This document shows, one piece after another, positions 5,150 to 22,130 of a DNA stretch of 22,130 nt; the stretch's first letter is position 1; each line of letters begins with the position of its first letter. Below the pieces are notes generated by a model. The model worked only from the letters and a program-made list of their open reading frames with translations, did not search any database and was not told where the DNA came from. This stretch comes from a virus. The translations under genes were made by a program, and so were the position numbers. The stretch covers positions 1 through 22,130 of IMG/VR virus record IMGVR_UViG_3300024581_002302, one strand, 5' to 3'.

Positions 5150-6654
5150 TGAGAATCCACCAGAACACCATCGACCAGGTGCGCGAACGCGCGCAGATCC
5201 TGGATCAGTTCGAGCAGTCGAGCCTGAAGAAGATCGGCTACGAGTTCGCGGCCCGCTGCCCATGGCATGACGACAAGCGCCCCAGCCTCAGCATCAGCCC
5301 ACAGAAGAACTTCGCGTTCTGCCACGTCTGCGCACGTGGTGTCGATGCGATCGGATGGGTGCAGGACCGCCAGGGTCTGAGCTTCTCCGAGGCGGTGATG
5401 AACCTCGCCGGCCAGTACAACATCGAAGTGCAGGCTGCAGACGAGGAGGACTCCGCCAAGTTCGAGGAGCAGCGCAAGGAGCGCGCCCGCCTGTTCAGAC
5501 AGCGCGAGCAACAGGTCGCCGAGTACACCGAGGCCGTGTGGGATTCCCCCGCGCTCGAGTACCTGATGGGCCGCGACCTGACACCCGAGACCATCGAAGA
5601 ATGGAACCTCGGCTGGTCTGCTGCTGCTCGCCGGGTGATGTTCCCGCTCAACGATGCGCAGGGGCGCACCGTCGGATTCACCGGCCGGGTCCTCGATGAC
5701 TCGAAGCCGAAGTACAAGAACTCGCAGAACGACGCGATCTACCAGAAGGCGAACCTCGTGTTCGGTCTGGACAAGGCGCGCGAGCGGATCATGCAGACCC
5801 AGCAGGTGGTGATCACCGAGGGTCAGTTCGACGTGATCCGTCTCTGGCAGGAAGACATCCGGAACGTCATCGCCGTGTCTGGTTCATCCCTGACGAAGGG
5901 CATGATCGAGAACCTGGTCCGCACGACCCGCGTGACTCAGGTCGTGCTCTGTTTCGACGGTGACCTGGGCGGAGAGAAGGCAGCCGAGCGTGCGATCAAT
6001 GAGCTGCAGGAGTTCGCACTCCGTGGCGAGCTGGACCTGCGCATCCTGGTCATGCCCGAAGGGACCGATCCGGCTGACTGCGCCGAGATGTTCGGGTTCC
6101 TCCTTGAGGAGGCCGTCACCTGGGTCGAGTACATGTTCGAGCGTGCGGTGGCGAAGGTCGACCTGAACGACCCGACAGCAATCACCAAGGCAGAGCAAGG
6201 TGTGAAGCGAATCCTGCGCATCCTCCCGAAGGGTGGCCTGCGTGAGTACGTGCAGCGCCGGGCGAAGGAAGTCCTGAAGGCTGTCCCTGTTGTCCCCGCT
6301 GCCAAGGTCCACACCCAGAAGCAGATCGACCGCTGCCGGTGGGCCGAGCGTCGCGCGCTTCGTCTGTACCTGCTCGACGAGGGCTGCCGCCCTGCGCTTG
6401 CAGACATCAGCTACACCGACCCGATGATGCAGCAGGCCTGGTCCCTGATCACCACGCTCGAGGGCATGGGTCAGAGCAGCCAGCTGCTGATCGCGTTCGC
6501 TGCGGTCCTGAAGCGACTGGATCGTGACCTGGCCGACGAGCTGTCATCCCTGTGCAACCCGATCGCAGAGGTCGCTCGTGTGATCAAGGCGAACCCGGTG
6601 AACGAGTTGGAGGGGGCGATGAACGTTCTGCTGTCCGATTGTTGTTCGGAGTAG
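5149..6654 (+). CDS. dnaG: DNA primase
   Basis: CHC2 zinc finger CPWHDD...CHVC, GFTGR, PKYKNS, and TOPRIM motifs EGQFD and CFDGDLGG. Confidence 0.95.
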   Translation: MRIHQNTIDQVRERAQILDQFEQSSLKKIGYEFAARCPWHDDKRPSLSISPQKNFAFCHVCARGVDAIGWVQDRQGLSFSEAVMNLAGQYNIEVQAADEEDSAKFEEQRKERARLFRQREQQVAEYTEAVWDSPALEYLMGRDLTPETIEEWNLGWSAAARRVMFPLNDAQGRTVGFTGRVLDDSKPKYKNSQNDAIYQKANLVFGLDKARERIMQTQQVVITEGQFDVIRLWQEDIRNVIAVSGSSLTKGMIENLVRTTRVTQVVLCFDGDLGGEKAAERAINELQEFALRGELDLRILVMPEGTDPADCAEMFGFLLEEAVTWVEYMFERAVAKVDLNDPTAITKAEQGVKRILRILPKGGLREYVQRRAKEVLKAVPVVPAAKVHTQKQIDRCRWAERRALRLYLLDEGCRPALADISYTDPMMQQAWSLITTLEGMGQSSQLLIAFAAVLKRLDRDLADELSSLCNPIAEVARVIKANPVNELEGAMNVLLSDCCSE

Positions 6655-18953: not shown

Positions 18954-20062
18954 GCAACCTTCGCGCACGACTGAACAAGCTCAAAGGCCTCGAGCCTTCT
19001 GTGACCCCGGCAGCCGCCGAGGTCTCTGCTCTGGCTGAGTACCAGGCCAACATCGACGAGTCACGCCTTCGGGCCATGGAGGCTCGCGATCGCGCCCGCA
19101 ACGAGGTGATCGAGACCGACTGGAACTCGAAGCTCGACAAGGCCAACGAGATCGAGGCCGAGGTCGAGTCCTTCCTTGCTACCCGCAAGAAGGGCCAAGG
19201 CATGAAGCGCGGCGGCTCCCTCCTGGTCCAGGTGACCGACGTCCATTTCGGCGGAACGGTCAAGGGACTCGAGGAGCGTGAGAACGCGAACGAGTACTGC
19301 CTGCACAAGGCAGCCCACCGTCTCGCTGTCTACGCCGAGGAGATCCTGTTCTACGCCGCGGCCCATGGTGTCGATGAGCTGGTGATCGCCTTCACCGGTG
19401 ACATCTTCGACTCGAAGGTGGGCAAGGAGCGCAAGGACAAGATGCTCCACGCAGAGGGCACCGCCTGCTCCGCATACCTGAAGGGCCGGGACCTGATCCG
19501 CCAGTTCGTGGACACCTTCCGCGAGTCTGAGCTGTTCGGCTCGATCACCCTCGCAGGCATCGCCGGCAACGAGGCCCGCCTGTACGACGACCGCGGTCAT
19601 GGTCACGTGACTGCATCCGAGAACTGGGACTCTCTGCTGAATGCAGACCTGGTGGCCTGGTACGCCGGCTCGGATGTCGACCTGAAGATGCGCGTCAACC
19701 GCTGCGTGATCGAGATCCAGGGATGGAAGGTTCTCCTGTTACATGGTGACCAGGCCATCGACCGGAACCTCAGCCAGACCCGCTGCTACAGCGTCCTCGC
19801 TCAGCACAAGGCGGACTTCGGCATCTCTGGCCACATCCACTCCGGACTGGTCACGCCGTACTGGGTGCGCTCTGCTTCCTTGATTGGCACCGACGCCTAC
19901 GCGGGCGACGGCCTCGCTCTTGATGGCATGGCGTCGCAGACCATCTTCTGGCTGCGCCCTGGCAAGCGGAACACGATCCAGGTCGACTTGCAGAACGCTG
20001 ACCCGGACATCGAGCCCTTCGAGGTCTTCGACTACGACGGGGCCTTCGGCGCTGCTGCTTGA
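18950..20062 (+). CDS. Calcineurin-like metallophosphoesterase with an N-terminal coiled coil
   Basis: Five-motif signature TDVHFG, GDIFD, GNE, LLHGD, GHIH. Confidence 0.85.
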   Translation: MSNLRARLNKLKGLEPSVTPAAAEVSALAEYQANIDESRLRAMEARDRARNEVIETDWNSKLDKANEIEAEVESFLATRKKGQGMKRGGSLLVQVTDVHFGGTVKGLEERENANEYCLHKAAHRLAVYAEEILFYAAAHGVDELVIAFTGDIFDSKVGKERKDKMLHAEGTACSAYLKGRDLIRQFVDTFRESELFGSITLAGIAGNEARLYDDRGHGHVTASENWDSLLNADLVAWYAGSDVDLKMRVNRCVIEIQGWKVLLLHGDQAIDRNLSQTRCYSVLAQHKADFGISGHIHSGLVTPYWVRSASLIGTDAYAGDGLALDGMASQTIFWLRPGKRNTIQVDLQNADPDIEPFEVFDYDGAFGAAA

Positions 20063-20086
20063 TTGTTCGCATTAGAACAAACACAC

Positions 20087-20108
20087 AAGGGCCTTCGGGC
20101 CCTTTTTT
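20087..20108 (+). terminator. Rho-independent terminator
   Basis: GGGCC-TTCG-GGCCC followed by T6. Confidence 0.88.
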
Positions 20109-20110
20109 AG

Positions 20111-20133
20111 TACAGGCACTCGTACCCTGTGCT
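20111..20133 (+). promoter_or_regulatory. Phage promoter motif
   Basis: ACAGGCACTCGTACCCTGTGC, 21 nt identical to 18365-18385. Confidence 0.65.
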
Positions 20134-20150
20134 GTTCCACATTCACGACC

Positions 20151-20312
20151 ATGTTCATCCCCCGCAACGCTGGGAACGGTCGCTCCCTCCACCAGGACGG
20201 CCACACCCTCGGCGATTTACCGAAGAAGACATCGATCGGCAACGGTCGACGCAAGGCGGGCTCCTACAAGAGGGGCGGCAAGAAGCGCTACCGGGGGCAG
20301 GGTCGTGGCTGA
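20151..20312 (+). CDS. Small, very basic Gly/Lys/Arg-rich protein, 53 aa (not in ORF track)
   Basis: MFIPRNAGNGRSLHQDGHTLGDLPKKTSIGNGRRKAGSYKRGGKKRYRGQGRG; first ORF after the promoter motif. Confidence 0.7.
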   Translation: MFIPRNAGNGRSLHQDGHTLGDLPKKTSIGNGRRKAGSYKRGGKKRYRGQGRG

Positions 20313-20604
20313 GCCACTGGTCCTCCCGTACCTGATCGGCTTCTGGGGACGGATTCGCGCAGAGCTTCAAAACGATGGCGCCGCTTCTGCTGTGCACCAG
20401 CTCTGGCTTCTGCGTCGTCAATCCCCCGAGGCCTGGCATGAGTTCGCGAGGAACGCCGCCGACTTCGGCCTCCCCTATCCGCAGCTCCTTCTTCTCAGCT
20501 GCCTCTGGGAATTGTCGAAGGAGGAACACCTATCAGACATCGCAGCCCGGCTGGCTGCACTTCCTGATCACTTGCTCACCGCCTTCCATGTCATCCACGA
20601 CTGA
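20305..20604 (+). CDS. Hypothetical Leu-rich protein
   Basis: GTG start overlapping the previous gene; fills the gap before the CP12-like gene. Confidence 0.55.
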   Translation: MAEPLVLPYLIGFWGRIRAELQNDGAASAVHQLWLLRRQSPEAWHEFARNAADFGLPYPQLLLLSCLWELSKEEHLSDIAARLAALPDHLLTAFHVIHD

Positions 20605-20779
20605 ATGCTCCTGTCCTCCCGGCTGCGTGTACTGCGCAAAGACCGGCGAGTGCACTTGCCCTGAACACACCGCCCCGTACTCGAACCTCGAGGACAGGCC
20701 CGAAAACCCGACCGCAAAGTTCAAGCGGTACTGCGAAGAAAACGAAGGCGCCGTCGAGTGCCGCATCTATGAGGACTGA
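20588..20779 (+). CDS. cp12: Atypical CP12-like protein with a Cys-rich N-terminus, 63 aa
   Basis: C-terminus FKRYCEENEGAVECRIYED matches the CP12 C-x8-C tail; N-terminus CSCPPGCVYCAKTGECTCPEH. Confidence 0.75.
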   Translation: MSSTTECSCPPGCVYCAKTGECTCPEHTAPYSNLEDRPENPTAKFKRYCEENEGAVECRIYED

Positions 20780-20783
20780 TCCG

Positions 20784-21071
20784 ATGAGTGCTGATCCCTA
20801 CGGCTACGCCGACCTGGACATCTATTCGTTCAACGTGAACTTCGACAAGAAGTTCGGGTTCAACGTCGACGCCCCGGTCAAGTCCAGCTCGGAAACCTCT
20901 CCCGCTCCGCACCCCCACCTCGAGGGAGTTGATGCCGGCGAATTGTTCGTCGTCGCAACCCCCGACGTGATCTACGGCCCCTACGCCACGCGGAACGCCG
21001 CCGAGTCCCTCCTCACGGACGGAACGGTCAACCCTGACGAGTCCCTCGTCATGCAACTCACCTACCCCTGA
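20784..21071 (+). CDS. Hypothetical protein
   Basis: ATG-start ORF (MSADPYG...) packed between the CP12-like and thioredoxin-like genes. Confidence 0.7.
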   Translation: MSADPYGYADLDIYSFNVNFDKKFGFNVDAPVKSSSETSPAPHPHLEGVDAGELFVVATPDVIYGPYATRNAAESLLTDGTVNPDESLVMQLTYP

Positions 21072-21076
21072 CTCCC

Positions 21077-21370
21077 ATGTTCAAGCTCTACGCGGTCGTC
21101 AACTACAAGACGTGCGGCTGGTGCAAGAAGTTCCGCCCCGTGCTCGAAACGAACACGAAGGCGATGAACCCTCGGGCTCAGGCCATGGTCGAAGAGGTTG
21201 ACCTCTCCACCCCCGAAGGCAAGGCACTGGCCGGCCAGCTGAACTTCTCGGGTGGCATCCCCTGCCTGATCGCGCGCAAGGGCGAGACCGAGGTGTACCG
21301 CCAGCCCGGCTACCAGGACGGGACGAAGTTCGCCCAGACCCTGTTCACCCTGTTCTCGACTTACGCCTGA
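21077..21370 (+). CDS. Thioredoxin/glutaredoxin-like protein
   Basis: CGWC active site, cis-Pro motif GIPC, 97 aa. Confidence 0.85.
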   Translation: MFKLYAVVNYKTCGWCKKFRPVLETNTKAMNPRAQAMVEEVDLSTPEGKALAGQLNFSGGIPCLIARKGETEVYRQPGYQDGTKFAQTLFTLFSTYA

Positions 21371-21396: not shown

Positions 21397-21421
21397 GCCC
21401 CGGCAACTGCTGGGGCTTTTT
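21397..21421 (+). terminator. Rho-independent terminator
   Basis: GCCCCGGC-AACT-GCTGGGGC followed by T5. Confidence 0.8.
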
Positions 21422-21441: not shown

Positions 21442-22130
21442 ATGCACATCACCGTCATTCACGCACCCGAGCGCTGTGAGCCCTGCCGCGACATGGGCGA
21501 GCGCATCGAGAGCGTCGGGAGGCGAATCCCCGAGCTTCGCTCCCACATCAAGTTCCTGCACGCCGACAAGCAGGAAGTCCCGCACGACTTCTCCGTCATC
21601 CCCACGATCCTCCTGATCGATGACGAAGGCGAGGAGCTGTTCCGCTCTGAGGGTCGCGTCTCCGAGGTCCTCTTCGAGCGTCTGGCTGCAGCTGCTGTTG
21701 CTGGTGAGTACTCCCCCGAGGAGTTCAGCGAGCACGCACCCAGCGCGAACGTCGTCTTCTATCGCACCTACTCCCGCCGCACCGAGAGCGAGCAGCGCGA
21801 GACCTATCTCGAAGCGATCCATCGCGTCGCCAAGGACATCAGCACCCTCGGCAAGTTCACCGACGAGGAAGCCGACCTGGTCCTGCAGCAGGCCCTCGGC
21901 CAGCACGCCCTCCCCTCTGGCCGTTGGCTGTGGGTGGGTGGCACCCCCTGGATCAAGAAGCAGGAGAACTTCTCCGGTGCATACAACTGCACCTCGACCA
22001 GCGTCACCGATAAGGACGCCTTCGGTCTGATCATGGAGCTGGCGATGATGGGCTCCGGCACCGGTGCCATCCTCGAGGACCACATGGTCGCGAAGCTCCC
22101 GAAGGTGCTGAACGCGATCAAGATCACCAA
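21442..22130 (+). CDS. nrdJ: Class II (adenosylcobamide-dependent) ribonucleotide reductase with a fused N-terminal thioredoxin-like domain; runs off the window end
   Basis: One open frame from ATG 21442: MHITVIHAPERCEPCRDM...VIPTILLIDDEGEELFRSEG, then APSANVVFYRTYSRR...LPSGRWLWVGGT...SGAYNCTST...FGLIMELAMMGSGTG, typical of cyanobacterial-type monomeric NrdJ. Confidence 0.9.
   Translation, partial: MHITVIHAPERCEPCRDMGERIESVGRRIPELRSHIKFLHADKQEVPHDFSVIPTILLIDDEGEELFRSEGRVSEVLFERLAAAAVAGEYSPEEFSEHAPSANVVFYRTYSRRTESEQRETYLEAIHRVAKDISTLGKFTDEEADLVLQQALGQHALPSGRWLWVGGTPWIKKQENFSGAYNCTSTSVTDKDAFGLIMELAMMGSGTGAILEDHMVAKLPKVLNAIKIT

What the first reader, a model, noticed from the sequence alone, without database searches (positions are those of the whole stretch)
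20588..20779. CP12 tail grafted onto a metallothionein-like Cys/His module
Seen: MSSTTE-CSCPPGCVYCAKTGECTCPEH-TAPYSNLEDRPENPTAK-FKRYCEENEGAVECRIYED. Known: the CP12 C-terminal C-x8-C tail binds GAPDH, the central AWDxVEEL core engages PRK, and cyanophage CP12s dampen the Calvin cycle. Here the AWDxVEEL core is absent, the usual loop Pro is missing, and the N-terminus is CxC-x3-CxxC-x5-CxC-x2-H with seven potential metal ligands. Inference: a GAPDH-only inhibitor gated by metal (Zn/Cu) or redox state, possibly a new CP12 architecture.
Basis: partly seen in the sequence, partly recalled or inferred. Interest (0 to 1): 0.8.

Follow-up and report, generated by a model that had tools for sequence, protein, structure and literature searches.

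The report
Cysteine-headed CP12 tail in cyanophage
A P-SS2-like virus of marine cyanobacteria encodes a conserved 63-residue protein that keeps only the GAPDH-plugging tail of the Calvin-cycle inhibitor CP12 and replaces the PRK-binding half with a small, probably metal-binding cysteine knuckle; this is a new variant of a known viral trick.

Summary
ORF 20588-20779 (+) encodes the 63-aa peptide as written. It lies in a 99.5-kb IMG/VR cyanosiphovirus whose TerL is 61% identical to phage P-SS2.

**CP12 tail.** The tail is a real CP12 GAPDH-binding domain. Pfam CP12 alone falls just below its cut-off (21.3 against 22.7 bits). A profile of 20 homologues hits solved CP12 chains at E 2e-7. C-x8-C, RIYED and the Glu69 equivalent are all kept. 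The AWD_VEEL/PRK-binding domain is absent.

**Cysteine head.** The N-terminal cysteines are conserved. CxxC-x5-CxC is invariant in 20/20 sequences, and the extra CxC is present in 16-17/20. Cys/His swaps at ligand-like positions favour a metal site. No metallothionein or other family matches the head.

**Co-fold.** A co-fold with Synechocystis Gap2 scored ipSAE 0.76, best control 0.00. Only residues 45-63 touch. This may reflect memory of solved complexes.

**Distribution.**
- The gene is syntenic (exonuclease, this gene, thioredoxin, Trx-NrdJ) in a second virus.
- P-SS2 has an unannotated 58-aa counterpart.
- No cellular copy was found.

**Reading.** It is most likely a GAPDH-only CP12 with a Zn- or redox-sensitive head. 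Metal binding and the lack of PRK binding are untested. The scan noted the same family earlier on another genome (e1-5884208).

The parts
20588..20779 (+). CDS of the 63-aa Cys-headed CP12-like protein (P0001), stop codon included
   Evidence: homologues; syntenic copy L002:5971-6162
20606..20671 (+). N-terminal cysteine module, residues 7-28: CxC-x3-CxxC-x5-CxC-xx-H. The core CxxC-x5-CxC (C13, C16, C22, C24) is invariant
   Evidence: AF2 predicts a beta-hairpin at 14-16/21-23, block pLDDT 63-73. No family, PDB or Atlas match
20672..20719 (+). Variable acidic, Pro-rich linker (residues 29-44), with indels among homologues
   Evidence: residues 25-44 carry 10 of the 22 non-synonymous codon differences against L002
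20720..20776 (+). [quoted passage not shown]
   Evidence: profile against 6gfo_E E 2.2e-7, 3zdf_C 5.3e-7; the whole predicted interface lies here; PMC6800369
20087..20104 (+). Terminator-like hairpin closing the preceding exonuclease unit
20122..20133 (+). Copy of the recurrent GTACCCTGTGCC box (candidate phage promoter element) that opens the unit holding the gene
   Evidence: 9 matches in the window against 1.4 expected
20784..21071 (+). Conserved 95-aa ORF of unknown function, 5 nt after the stop; also follows the gene in L002
   Evidence: no Pfam or PHROG match
21077..21370 (+). Thioredoxin-like protein (CGWC motif) in the same unit
   Evidence: Thioredoxin_2 E 7e-5; homologous to P-SS2 gp010
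21397..21416 (+). Terminator-like hairpin closing the unit
21442..22130 (+). Start of the Trx-like/class II ribonucleotide reductase fusion; runs off the window

Best explanation
This is a real, selected phage gene for a truncated CP12.

Shown by sequence: residues 45-63 are a complete CP12 C-terminal domain. It has the helix, the C-x8-C disulfide loop, the Glu that clashes with the NADP 2'-phosphate, and the R-I-Y-E-D end that enters the GAPDH active site.

Inferred: when the C49-C58 disulfide is formed, the tail plugs host Gap2 in its NAD-bound form. That throttles the reductive step of the Calvin cycle in the infected Synechococcus-type host and spares NADPH for the adjacent thioredoxin and ribonucleotide-reductase genes.

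Shown: the two-helix PRK-binding domain with AWD_VEEL is gone. Inferred: PRK is not recruited, so no GAPDH-CP12-PRK ternary complex forms.

In its place sits an 18-22 residue beta-hairpin knuckle with four invariant and two to three further Cys/His. I read it as a metal site: most simply Zn(Cys)4, possibly a second metal or a Cu(I)/Fe site using the extra CxC and His. Its role would be either to give the otherwise disordered peptide a folded, protease-resistant head, or to act as a zinc-thiolate redox switch. The metal and the function of the head are inferred, not shown.
For: Tail:
- Pfam CP12 E 4.8e-4.
- The family profile retrieves PF02672 proteins from 5.8 billion sequences and solved CP12 chains at E 2.2e-7.
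- E57, C49, C58, I60, Y61 and D63 are kept in 18-20 of 20 sequences.
- They map to CP12 residues 57-75, the GAPDH-binding domain, including Glu69 (PMC6800369).

Co-fold with G3P2_SYNY3 plus NAD plus Zn:
- ipSAE 0.76, best control 0.00.
- The mark was reached by 58 of 80 solved complexes and 2 of 110 mismatched pairs.
- The runs agree in 100% of contacts; partner pLDDT is at least 61.
- Only residues 45-63 are in the interface.

Head:
- C13, C16, C22 and C24 are invariant; C7 and C9 are present in 16-17 of 20.
- The head and the tail are conserved while the linker drifts.
- AF2 predicts a hairpin carrying the four Cys.
- Ligand-type swaps occur: His (12 of 20) or Cys (P0007) at column 28. P-SS2 keeps CxC-x3-CxxC, whereas distant members keep CxxC-x5/6-CxC, so there are always four ligands. 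L030 and L031 carry CxC-x5-CxH before a CP12 tail.

Context:
- The order exonuclease, this gene, Trx, Trx-NrdJ is the same in L002 and P-SS2.
- One promoter-box-to-terminator unit holds the gene and the Trx.

Phage-only so far: there is no cellular copy in the genome-contig scan, and 401 cyanobacterial genomes gave only canonical CP12 hits of 39 bits or less.
Against: - The single-sequence Pfam score is below the gathering cut-off (21.3 against 22.7 bits).
- The co-fold may pass from memory of the solved CP12-GAPDH complexes. It also used a Synechocystis stand-in, not the unknown host's Gap2.
- The loop Pro is replaced by Glu in this clade, with unknown effect on the tail fold.
- Nothing shows a metal. 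The AF2 model is of low confidence (mean pLDDT 62), and the four core Cys sit so that cross-strand disulfides are also possible.
- Absence of AWD_VEEL does not prove that PRK is not bound through another surface.
- The phage lacks talC, so the classic CP12-plus-pentose-phosphate gene set is incomplete.
- No expression data could be obtained.
Confidence: 0.6

Rival explanations
1. The tail works as above, but the head binds no metal. Its four to six cysteines form two or three disulfides under oxidising conditions, a cross-strand ladder on the hairpin. The head would then be a purely redox-conditional fold, an enlarged version of the N-terminal disulfide hairpin of canonical CP12, or a thiol buffer that delays reduction of the tail disulfide by host thioredoxin in the light.
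For: - CP12 is itself a disulfide-gated, conditionally disordered protein (PMC6800369).
- In the AF2 hairpin, C13 and C24 are cross-strand neighbours.
- The N-half alone weakly matches repeat proteins with CPxGxVYCxxTGxC units that look like secreted, disulfide-rich proteins (P0010 and P0011).
- The weak Foldseek rows are disulfide-rich peptides (not significant).
- A thioredoxin gene lies in the same unit.
- A 2026 preprint proposes redox buffering by phage CP12.
Against: - His or Cys alternate at column 28, and His stands in the last ligand position in L030 and L031. That fits metal ligation, not disulfides.
- CxxC and CxC pairs on a knuckle are the usual zinc geometry (established knowledge).
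- Odd ligand counts (5 or 7 Cys) occur in P0008 and P0007.
Confidence: 0.3
2. The head is a new partner-binding domain, so the protein is an adapter. It tethers to GAPDH either PRK, through a non-canonical surface, or a different host or phage protein such as the adjacent 95-aa protein or the thioredoxin.
For: - In canonical CP12 the N-terminal domain exists to recruit a second enzyme.
- The head is as conserved as the tail.
- The acidic stretch after the head (P-E-D-H-A-P ... L-E-D) could mimic the acidic AWD_VEEL patch. This is inference only.
- The 95-aa neighbour is conserved beside the gene in two genomes.
Against: - There is no sequence or profile similarity of the head to the CP12 PRK-binding domain.
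- P-SS2 lacks the 95-aa neighbour.
Confidence: 0.15
3. The CP12-like tail no longer binds GAPDH. The protein would be a small zinc-finger or redox protein that serves the thioredoxin/ribonucleotide-reductase cassette, for example as an electron-transfer or regulatory partner, and the tail would be a relic or would bind another NAD(P) enzyme.
For: - The gene is always found next to Trx and Trx-NrdJ.
- The loop Pro is lost in this clade.
- The P-SS2 counterpart has a degenerate end (C-R-E-F-D-V, with Arg in place of the Glu69 equivalent).
- The CBS-CP12 fusions show that CP12-like segments need not bind GAPDH (PMC3906501).
Against: - In this protein and 18 of 20 relatives, every position of the tail that contacts GAPDH in solved structures is kept under evident purifying selection.
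- The co-fold passes.
Confidence: 0.1

Closest known systems
Canonical cyanobacterial CP12 (Thermosynechococcus CP12 in 6GFO/6GVE; Synechococcus elongatus CP12 in 3B1J)
   Same: [quoted passage not shown] It is a small, acidic protein.
   Different: It has no two-helix N-terminal domain and no AWD_VEEL motif, and only HMM positions 47-70 match. The head is a Cys4-6 beta-hairpin knuckle. The loop reads N-E-G instead of N-P-D.
T4-like cyanomyovirus CP12 (for example P-HM2; about 70 aa, as in L011, L017, L024)
   Same: It is a phage-borne CP12 thought to shut down the Calvin cycle during infection, and it keeps the same tail.
   Different: The myovirus proteins align over nearly the whole CP12 HMM and are modelled as still contacting PRK (preprint 10.64898/2026.09.10.750766). 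They have no Cys cluster. They are usually found with talC, zwf and gnd; talC is absent here.
Short tail-only viral CP12s (41-58 aa: amphipathic helix, often with C-x5-C, plus tail) and the cyanobacterial 'CP12-C' class listed by Lopez-Calcagno et al. 2014 after Stanley et al. 2013
   Same: They lack the PRK-binding core and keep the C-terminal Cys pair. Distant members of this family also carry the N-terminal amphipathic stretch.
   Different: None of them has the invariant CxxC-x5-CxC knuckle.
Other grafts of the CP12 tail: the plant GapB C-terminal extension and the cyanobacterial CBS-CP12 fusions (5NMU)
   Same: They show that the CP12 tail is a portable module that can be attached to other domains.
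   Different: The partner domain is an enzyme subunit or a CBS pair, not a mini cysteine knuckle. The CBS-CP12 fusions are reported not to bind GAPDH.
Zinc-thiolate redox switches (Hsp33 CxC...CxxC, RsrA-type anti-sigma factors) and copper CxC clusters (CopY, Mac1). Recalled from memory; an analogy only
   Same: They have CxC and CxxC pairs, sometimes with a trailing His, and four to seven ligands within about 20 residues.
   Different: No sequence relationship was detected. Spacing and context differ. The metal is unknown here.

Membership tests
CP12 (Pfam PF02672) | C-terminal cysteine pair C-x8-C followed by [RK]-[IL]-[YF]-x-D at the very C-terminus | tested here: met
   C49-x8-C58-R-I-Y-E-D is present. 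It is invariant or nearly invariant in 20 homologues.
CP12 (Pfam PF02672) | Conserved Glu before the second Cys (Glu69 of T. elongatus CP12), which excludes NADP(H) | tested here: met
   E57 is present, and Glu holds this position in 18 of 20. The position was mapped through the profile alignment to 3zdf_C and 6gfo_E. Its role is taken from PMC6800369.
CP12 (Pfam PF02672) | Score at or above the Pfam gathering cut-off | tested here: not met
   The score is 21.3 bits against 22.7, because only a third of the model can match. A family profile reaches solved CP12 at E 2.2e-7, and it reaches PF02672 proteins at E 4e-6.
CP12 (Pfam PF02672) | Central AWD_VEEL motif (PRK-binding acidic patch) | tested here: not met
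   The motif is absent from the sequence, and HMM positions 1-46 are unmatched.
CP12 (Pfam PF02672) | N-terminal cysteine pair closing a two-helix hairpin | tested here: not met
   N-terminal Cys are present but with other spacing (1-3-2-5-1). They are predicted on a beta-hairpin, not on helices. The model confidence is low.
CP12 (Pfam PF02672) | Binds and inhibits photosynthetic GAPDH (Gap2) | tested here: inconclusive
   The co-fold gave ipSAE 0.76, best control 0.00. The mark was reached by 58 of 80 solved complexes and 2 of 110 mismatched pairs. Contact agreement was 100% and partner pLDDT at least 61. It supports binding but does not show it, may come from memory of solved complexes, and used a stand-in Gap2.
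Metallothionein (Pfam metallothionein families, including bacterial SmtA type) | Match to a metallothionein profile | tested here: not met
   No metallothionein family appears in the Pfam scan, even at E up to 10. Only the cysteine density (6 in 18 residues) and the CxC motifs resemble metallothioneins.
Zinc knuckle / small Cys4 metal site (structural class, not a sequence family) | Four conserved ligands in two closely spaced pairs on a beta-hairpin | tested here: met
   CxxC-x5/6-CxC is invariant in 20 of 20. The hairpin is predicted at 14-16/21-23.
Zinc knuckle / small Cys4 metal site (structural class, not a sequence family) | Bound metal ion | not testable with these tools
   Zn rode along in the co-fold but is not scored or reported. 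ICP-MS or a PAR assay is needed.

The most novel reading that the evidence does not exclude
The cysteine head is a working sensor or adapter rather than a structural cap. It could be a zinc- or copper-thiolate switch that makes inhibition of host GAPDH depend on the metal or oxidant status of the infected cell. Alternatively, it could dock a partner other than PRK onto GAPDH. Either would add a new input to the CP12 switch, one invented by siphoviruses and independent of the light/dark thioredoxin signal.
Probability: 0.25. Interest if true: 0.75.

Novelty: new variant of a known kind. Interest (0 to 1): 0.55.

Why it matters
CP12 is the textbook example of a phage gene that redirects host carbon metabolism. 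So far it is described in the papers I could search for myoviruses and podoviruses, with a near full-length CP12.

This work shows that P-SS2-like siphoviruses, including the reference isolate P-SS2 where the gene is unannotated, carry a stripped-down form. It keeps only the GAPDH plug and adds a conserved cysteine knuckle.

If it works as read, three things follow:
- It separates GAPDH inhibition from PRK inhibition in a natural system.
- It gives a minimal 63-residue tool for switching off Gap2.
- It raises the testable idea that metal or thiol chemistry, rather than only the light/dark thioredoxin signal, sets when a virus shuts down carbon fixation.

It also shows that annotation pipelines miss CP12 in cyanosiphoviruses: the Pfam score lies just under the cut-off. 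Surveys of cp12 distribution among cyanophages therefore undercount it.

Tried and rejected
**The head: searches that found nothing**
- Pfam and PHROGs gave nothing for the head. DUF3378 at E 0.35 is noise.
- phmmer of residues 5-32 against PDB sequences gave only non-significant rows.
- The ESM Atlas by features gave no usable hit.
- Foldseek of the AF2 model against PDB gave nothing at E <= 0.001; the model's pLDDT is 62, so this says little.

**Other searches**
- megablast of 4 kb against the phage collection found no match.
- tblastn of P0001 against phage isolates found only tails of other CP12s at E >= 0.2, and it missed the P-SS2 ORF.
- talC was not found in this phage.
- The genome contigs pattern scan found only three canonical CBS-CP12 loci of Mastigocoleus.
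- A search of 401 cyanobacterial genomes with the family profile found only canonical CP12, none of them Cys-headed.
- A word-index search with the L031-type protein found nothing. A viral scan with it returned only the amphipathic-helix class.

**Readings considered and rejected**
- P0010 and P0011, the repeat proteins hit by the N-half, were judged motif-level resemblance, not shown homology.
- P0054, a 1151-aa protein listed in a 90% cluster, is unrelated; it is a table artefact.
- The longer 134-aa reading from the ATG at 20375 was rejected. It overlaps the upstream ORF out of frame, and it is impossible in L002.

**Tools and papers not available**
- Thompson et al. 2011 could not be read.

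Full report
**What is there.** The window is the first 22 kb of a 99,525-base IMG/VR virus record estimated 93% complete, with 62% G+C. Its neighbours are phage genes: small and large terminase, a sigma factor, an exonuclease, a thioredoxin-like protein and a ribonucleotide reductase. The large terminase is 61% identical to that of cyanophage P-SS2, a siphovirus of Prochlorococcus MIT9313. It is 46-48% identical to the terminases of the Synechococcus siphoviruses S-CBS2 and S-CRES1-3. The gene therefore belongs to a P-SS2-like cyanosiphovirus. From its G+C content the host is probably a Synechococcus-type cyanobacterium; that is an inference.

**The tail is CP12.**
- Pfam CP12 (PF02672) matches residues 39-62 to model positions 47-70 of 70. 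The score is E 4.8e-4 and 21.3 bits, just below the 22.7-bit cut-off, because only a third of the model can match.
- Homologues settle the point. An exhaustive phmmer search and two word-index searches gave about 21 full-length relatives of 54-84 aa at 33-78% identity.
- A profile of these relatives then retrieves ordinary PF02672 proteins.
- The same profile hits solved CP12 chains: 6gfo_E at E 2.2e-7, the 23-residue CP12 peptide 3zdf_C at 5.3e-7, and CBS-CP12 5nmu_A at 8.9e-7.
- Residues 45-63 correspond to residues 57-75 of Thermosynechococcus CP12. McFarlane et al. describe these as the GAPDH-binding domain that inserts into the active site. They include Glu69, which excludes NADP(H) (PMC6800369).
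- Conservation in the family is high: F45, C49 and C58 are invariant; I60, Y61 and D63 are kept in 19 of 20; E57 (the Glu69 equivalent) is kept in 18 of 20.
- The loop Pro is replaced by Glu (N-E-G) in this protein and 14 relatives. The five most distant members keep N-P.

**What is missing.** Residues 25-44 are an acidic, proline-rich linker with indels. There is no AWD_VEEL motif and no match to the first 46 HMM positions. Against the syntenic copy in L002, the linker carries 10 of the 22 non-synonymous codon differences, while the head and the tail are conserved. That is the pattern of two functional modules joined by a spacer.

**The head.**
- The pattern is C7-x-C9-x3-C13-xx-C16-x5-C22-x-C24-xx-H27.
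- Across 20 sequences, C13, C16, C22 and C24 are invariant. C7 is present in 16 and C9 in 17.
- His is not fixed at column 27 (4 of 20) but at column 28 (12 of 20). In P0007 that column holds a Cys.
- The three most distant members have only CxxC-x5/6-CxC.
- The P-SS2 counterpart, described below, has only CxC-x3-CxxC.
- So every member keeps the central CxxC plus at least one flanking CxC, which gives at least four ligands.
- A separate small group of viral CP12 tails (L030, L031) carries CxC-x5-C-x-H just before the tail.
- His/Cys alternation and a constant count of four or more ligands fit a metal site better than a disulfide set. This is indirect evidence.
- AlphaFold2 on the 20-row alignment gives a low-confidence model (mean pLDDT 62). 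It has a beta-hairpin (14-16, 21-23) carrying the four invariant Cys, and two short C-terminal helices (41-51, 56-62) as in CP12.
- The head matches no Pfam or PHROG family, no PDB sequence, no Atlas cluster and no PDB fold. 'Metallothionein-like' is thus a description of composition, not of kinship.
- The N-half alone weakly hits two repeat proteins with CPxGxVYCxxTGxC units (P0010, P0011). I treat this as motif resemblance.

- The verdict was 'supports binding; does not show it'.
- ipSAE was 0.76, best of three controls 0.00.
- The mark was reached by 58 of 80 solved complexes and 2 of 110 mismatched pairs. These counts hold only roughly here, because my own alignment and small molecules were used.
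- The runs agree in 100% of contacts, and partner pLDDT is at least 61.
- The confident interface uses only residues 45-46, 49, 53-54 and 56-63 of the phage protein.
- On Gap2 it uses residues 98-100, 122-123, 153-155, 179-199, 210-214, 233, 242 and 317.
- The head is not placed against Gap2.
- CP12-GAPDH complexes are solved, so the pass may come from memory. It shows that the tail looks like a competent CP12 tail, not that this copy binds.

**Context and distribution.**
- The gene lies in a short unit bounded by a terminator-like hairpin (20087-20104), a copy of the recurrent GTACCCTGTGCC box (20122) and a second hairpin (21397-21416).
- Within the unit it is followed by a conserved 95-aa ORF and a CGWC thioredoxin. 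The Trx-NrdJ fusion comes next.
- A 106-kb IMG/VR contig (L002) has the same order: sigma factor, exonuclease, a 63-aa homologue, an 88-aa ORF, thioredoxin, Trx-NrdJ.
- In the reference phage P-SS2, the 230-nt 'gap' between gp009 and the thioredoxin gp010 holds an ORF at NC_013021.1:6197-6373.
  - It encodes a 58-aa protein with CxC-x3-CxxC and a CP12 tail.
  - hhalign against the family gives probability 94.5% and E 7.7e-8; Pfam CP12 gives 22.1 bits.
  - It is unannotated in all three P-SS2 records.
  - CP12 is not mentioned in the P-SS2 genome paper (PMC2784084).
  - Its tail end is more degenerate (C-R-E-F-D-V).
- No cellular genome among about 185,000 species representatives matched the family-specific tail pattern, apart from three canonical CBS-CP12 loci.
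- A profile search of 401 cyanobacterial genomes found only canonical CP12 at 39 bits or less, whereas family members score 68-118 bits. In what was searched, the Cys-headed form is phage-only.

**How unusual is it?**
- Viral contigs hold several CP12 architectures:
  - the roughly 71-aa T4-like form;
  - many 41-58-aa proteins made of an amphipathic helix (often with C-x5-C) plus the tail;
  - the L030/L031 form;
  - the present Cys-headed family.
- Cyanobacteria also have CP12 classes that lack one or more canonical features (PMC3906501). Loss of the PRK-binding core is therefore not new.
- The conserved cysteine knuckle is new as far as I could find. A 2026 survey of 1,421 CP12 sequences reports cysteine enrichment at only four HMM positions. 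My literature searches for a cysteine-rich or zinc CP12 found nothing.
- The scan's own notes record the same family in another P-SS2-like genome (e1-5884208) with the same reading. That is not independent evidence.

**Mechanism proposed.**
- Shown: an intact CP12 GAPDH-binding tail, absence of the PRK-binding domain, a conserved Cys4-6(His) head, and conserved placement beside the thioredoxin and reductase genes.
- Inferred: the oxidised tail plugs NAD-bound Gap2 and lowers NADPH use by the Calvin cycle, without assembling PRK.
- Inferred: the head binds a metal (Zn most simply). It either stabilises the peptide or acts as a thiolate redox switch.
- I put about 0.6 on this package as a whole. 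Taken singly, I put about 0.75-0.8 on 'functional GAPDH-binding CP12 variant', about 0.5 on 'metal-binding head', and about 0.6 on 'no PRK binding'.
- Rivals are a disulfide-only head (0.3 for that part), an adapter head that recruits PRK or another partner (0.15), and a tail that no longer serves GAPDH (0.1).

**Limits.**
- Contexts are known for only three genomes of one lineage, so synteny is not independent support.
- Thompson et al. 2011 could not be read. My statements about myovirus CP12 rest on reviews and on the 2026 preprint.

Noticed in passing
L058 (NC_013021.1, cyanophage P-SS2) 6197-6373 +: An unannotated 58-aa ORF lies between gp009 and the thioredoxin gp010. It has CxC-x3-CxxC plus a CP12 tail (F-x3-C-x8-C-R-E-F-D-V). 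hhalign against the family gives probability 94.5% and Pfam CP12 gives 22.1 bits. No feature is annotated there in any of the three P-SS2 records.
   Followed up: yes
L030:3322-3483 and L031:1282-1431: This is another mini CP12: 49-53 aa with C-G-C-x5-C-D-H directly before a CP12 tail (Pfam CP12 22.7 and 26.5 bits). L030 lies in a phage-like context (phrog_61 2OG-Fe(II) oxygenase). It may be an independent Cys3His knuckle on a CP12 tail. Further members could not be found.
   Followed up: partly
L003-L010, L013, L015-L016, L019, L023, L033, L039, L041-L042, L049, L059-L067: Many viral contigs encode 41-58-aa proteins made of an N-terminal amphipathic helix, often with a conserved C-x5-C as in W-L-x-C-K-L-F-K-R-C, plus a CP12 tail. 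A similar N-terminal stretch occurs in distant members of the Cys-headed family (P0007, P0008, P0013, P0021).
   Followed up: partly
window 20784-21071 + (L002:6166-6432): A conserved 88-95-aa ORF follows the gene closely (5 nt after its stop). It has no Pfam or PHROG match and is absent at this place in P-SS2.
   Followed up: partly
window 21077-21370 + and 21442-22130 +: A free thioredoxin-like protein with a CGWC motif (CGFC in P-SS2 gp010) is followed by a ribonucleotide reductase. The reductase's first ~90 residues contain a C-E-P-C motif and look thioredoxin-like. The same pair occurs in L002 and P-SS2. Earlier scan notes already describe the fusion.
   Followed up: no
window 20122-20133 and 6666, 13505, 16825, 17662, 18375: The GTACCCTGTGCC box recurs on the plus strand in front of genes: 9 matches with up to 2 mismatches, against 1.4 expected. 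It is a candidate phage promoter element.
   Followed up: partly
window about 20300-20604 +: A helical-looking ORF end (frame of 20059-20604) overlaps the start of the CP12-like gene by 17 nt. It has no family match and no counterpart in L002, and its true start is unclear.
   Followed up: no
protein P0054 (cluster of P0016): A 1151-aa protein that looks like an indolepyruvate:ferredoxin oxidoreductase is listed as a member of the 90% cluster of a 56-aa family member. The two are unrelated, so this is most likely a table artefact.
   Followed up: yes
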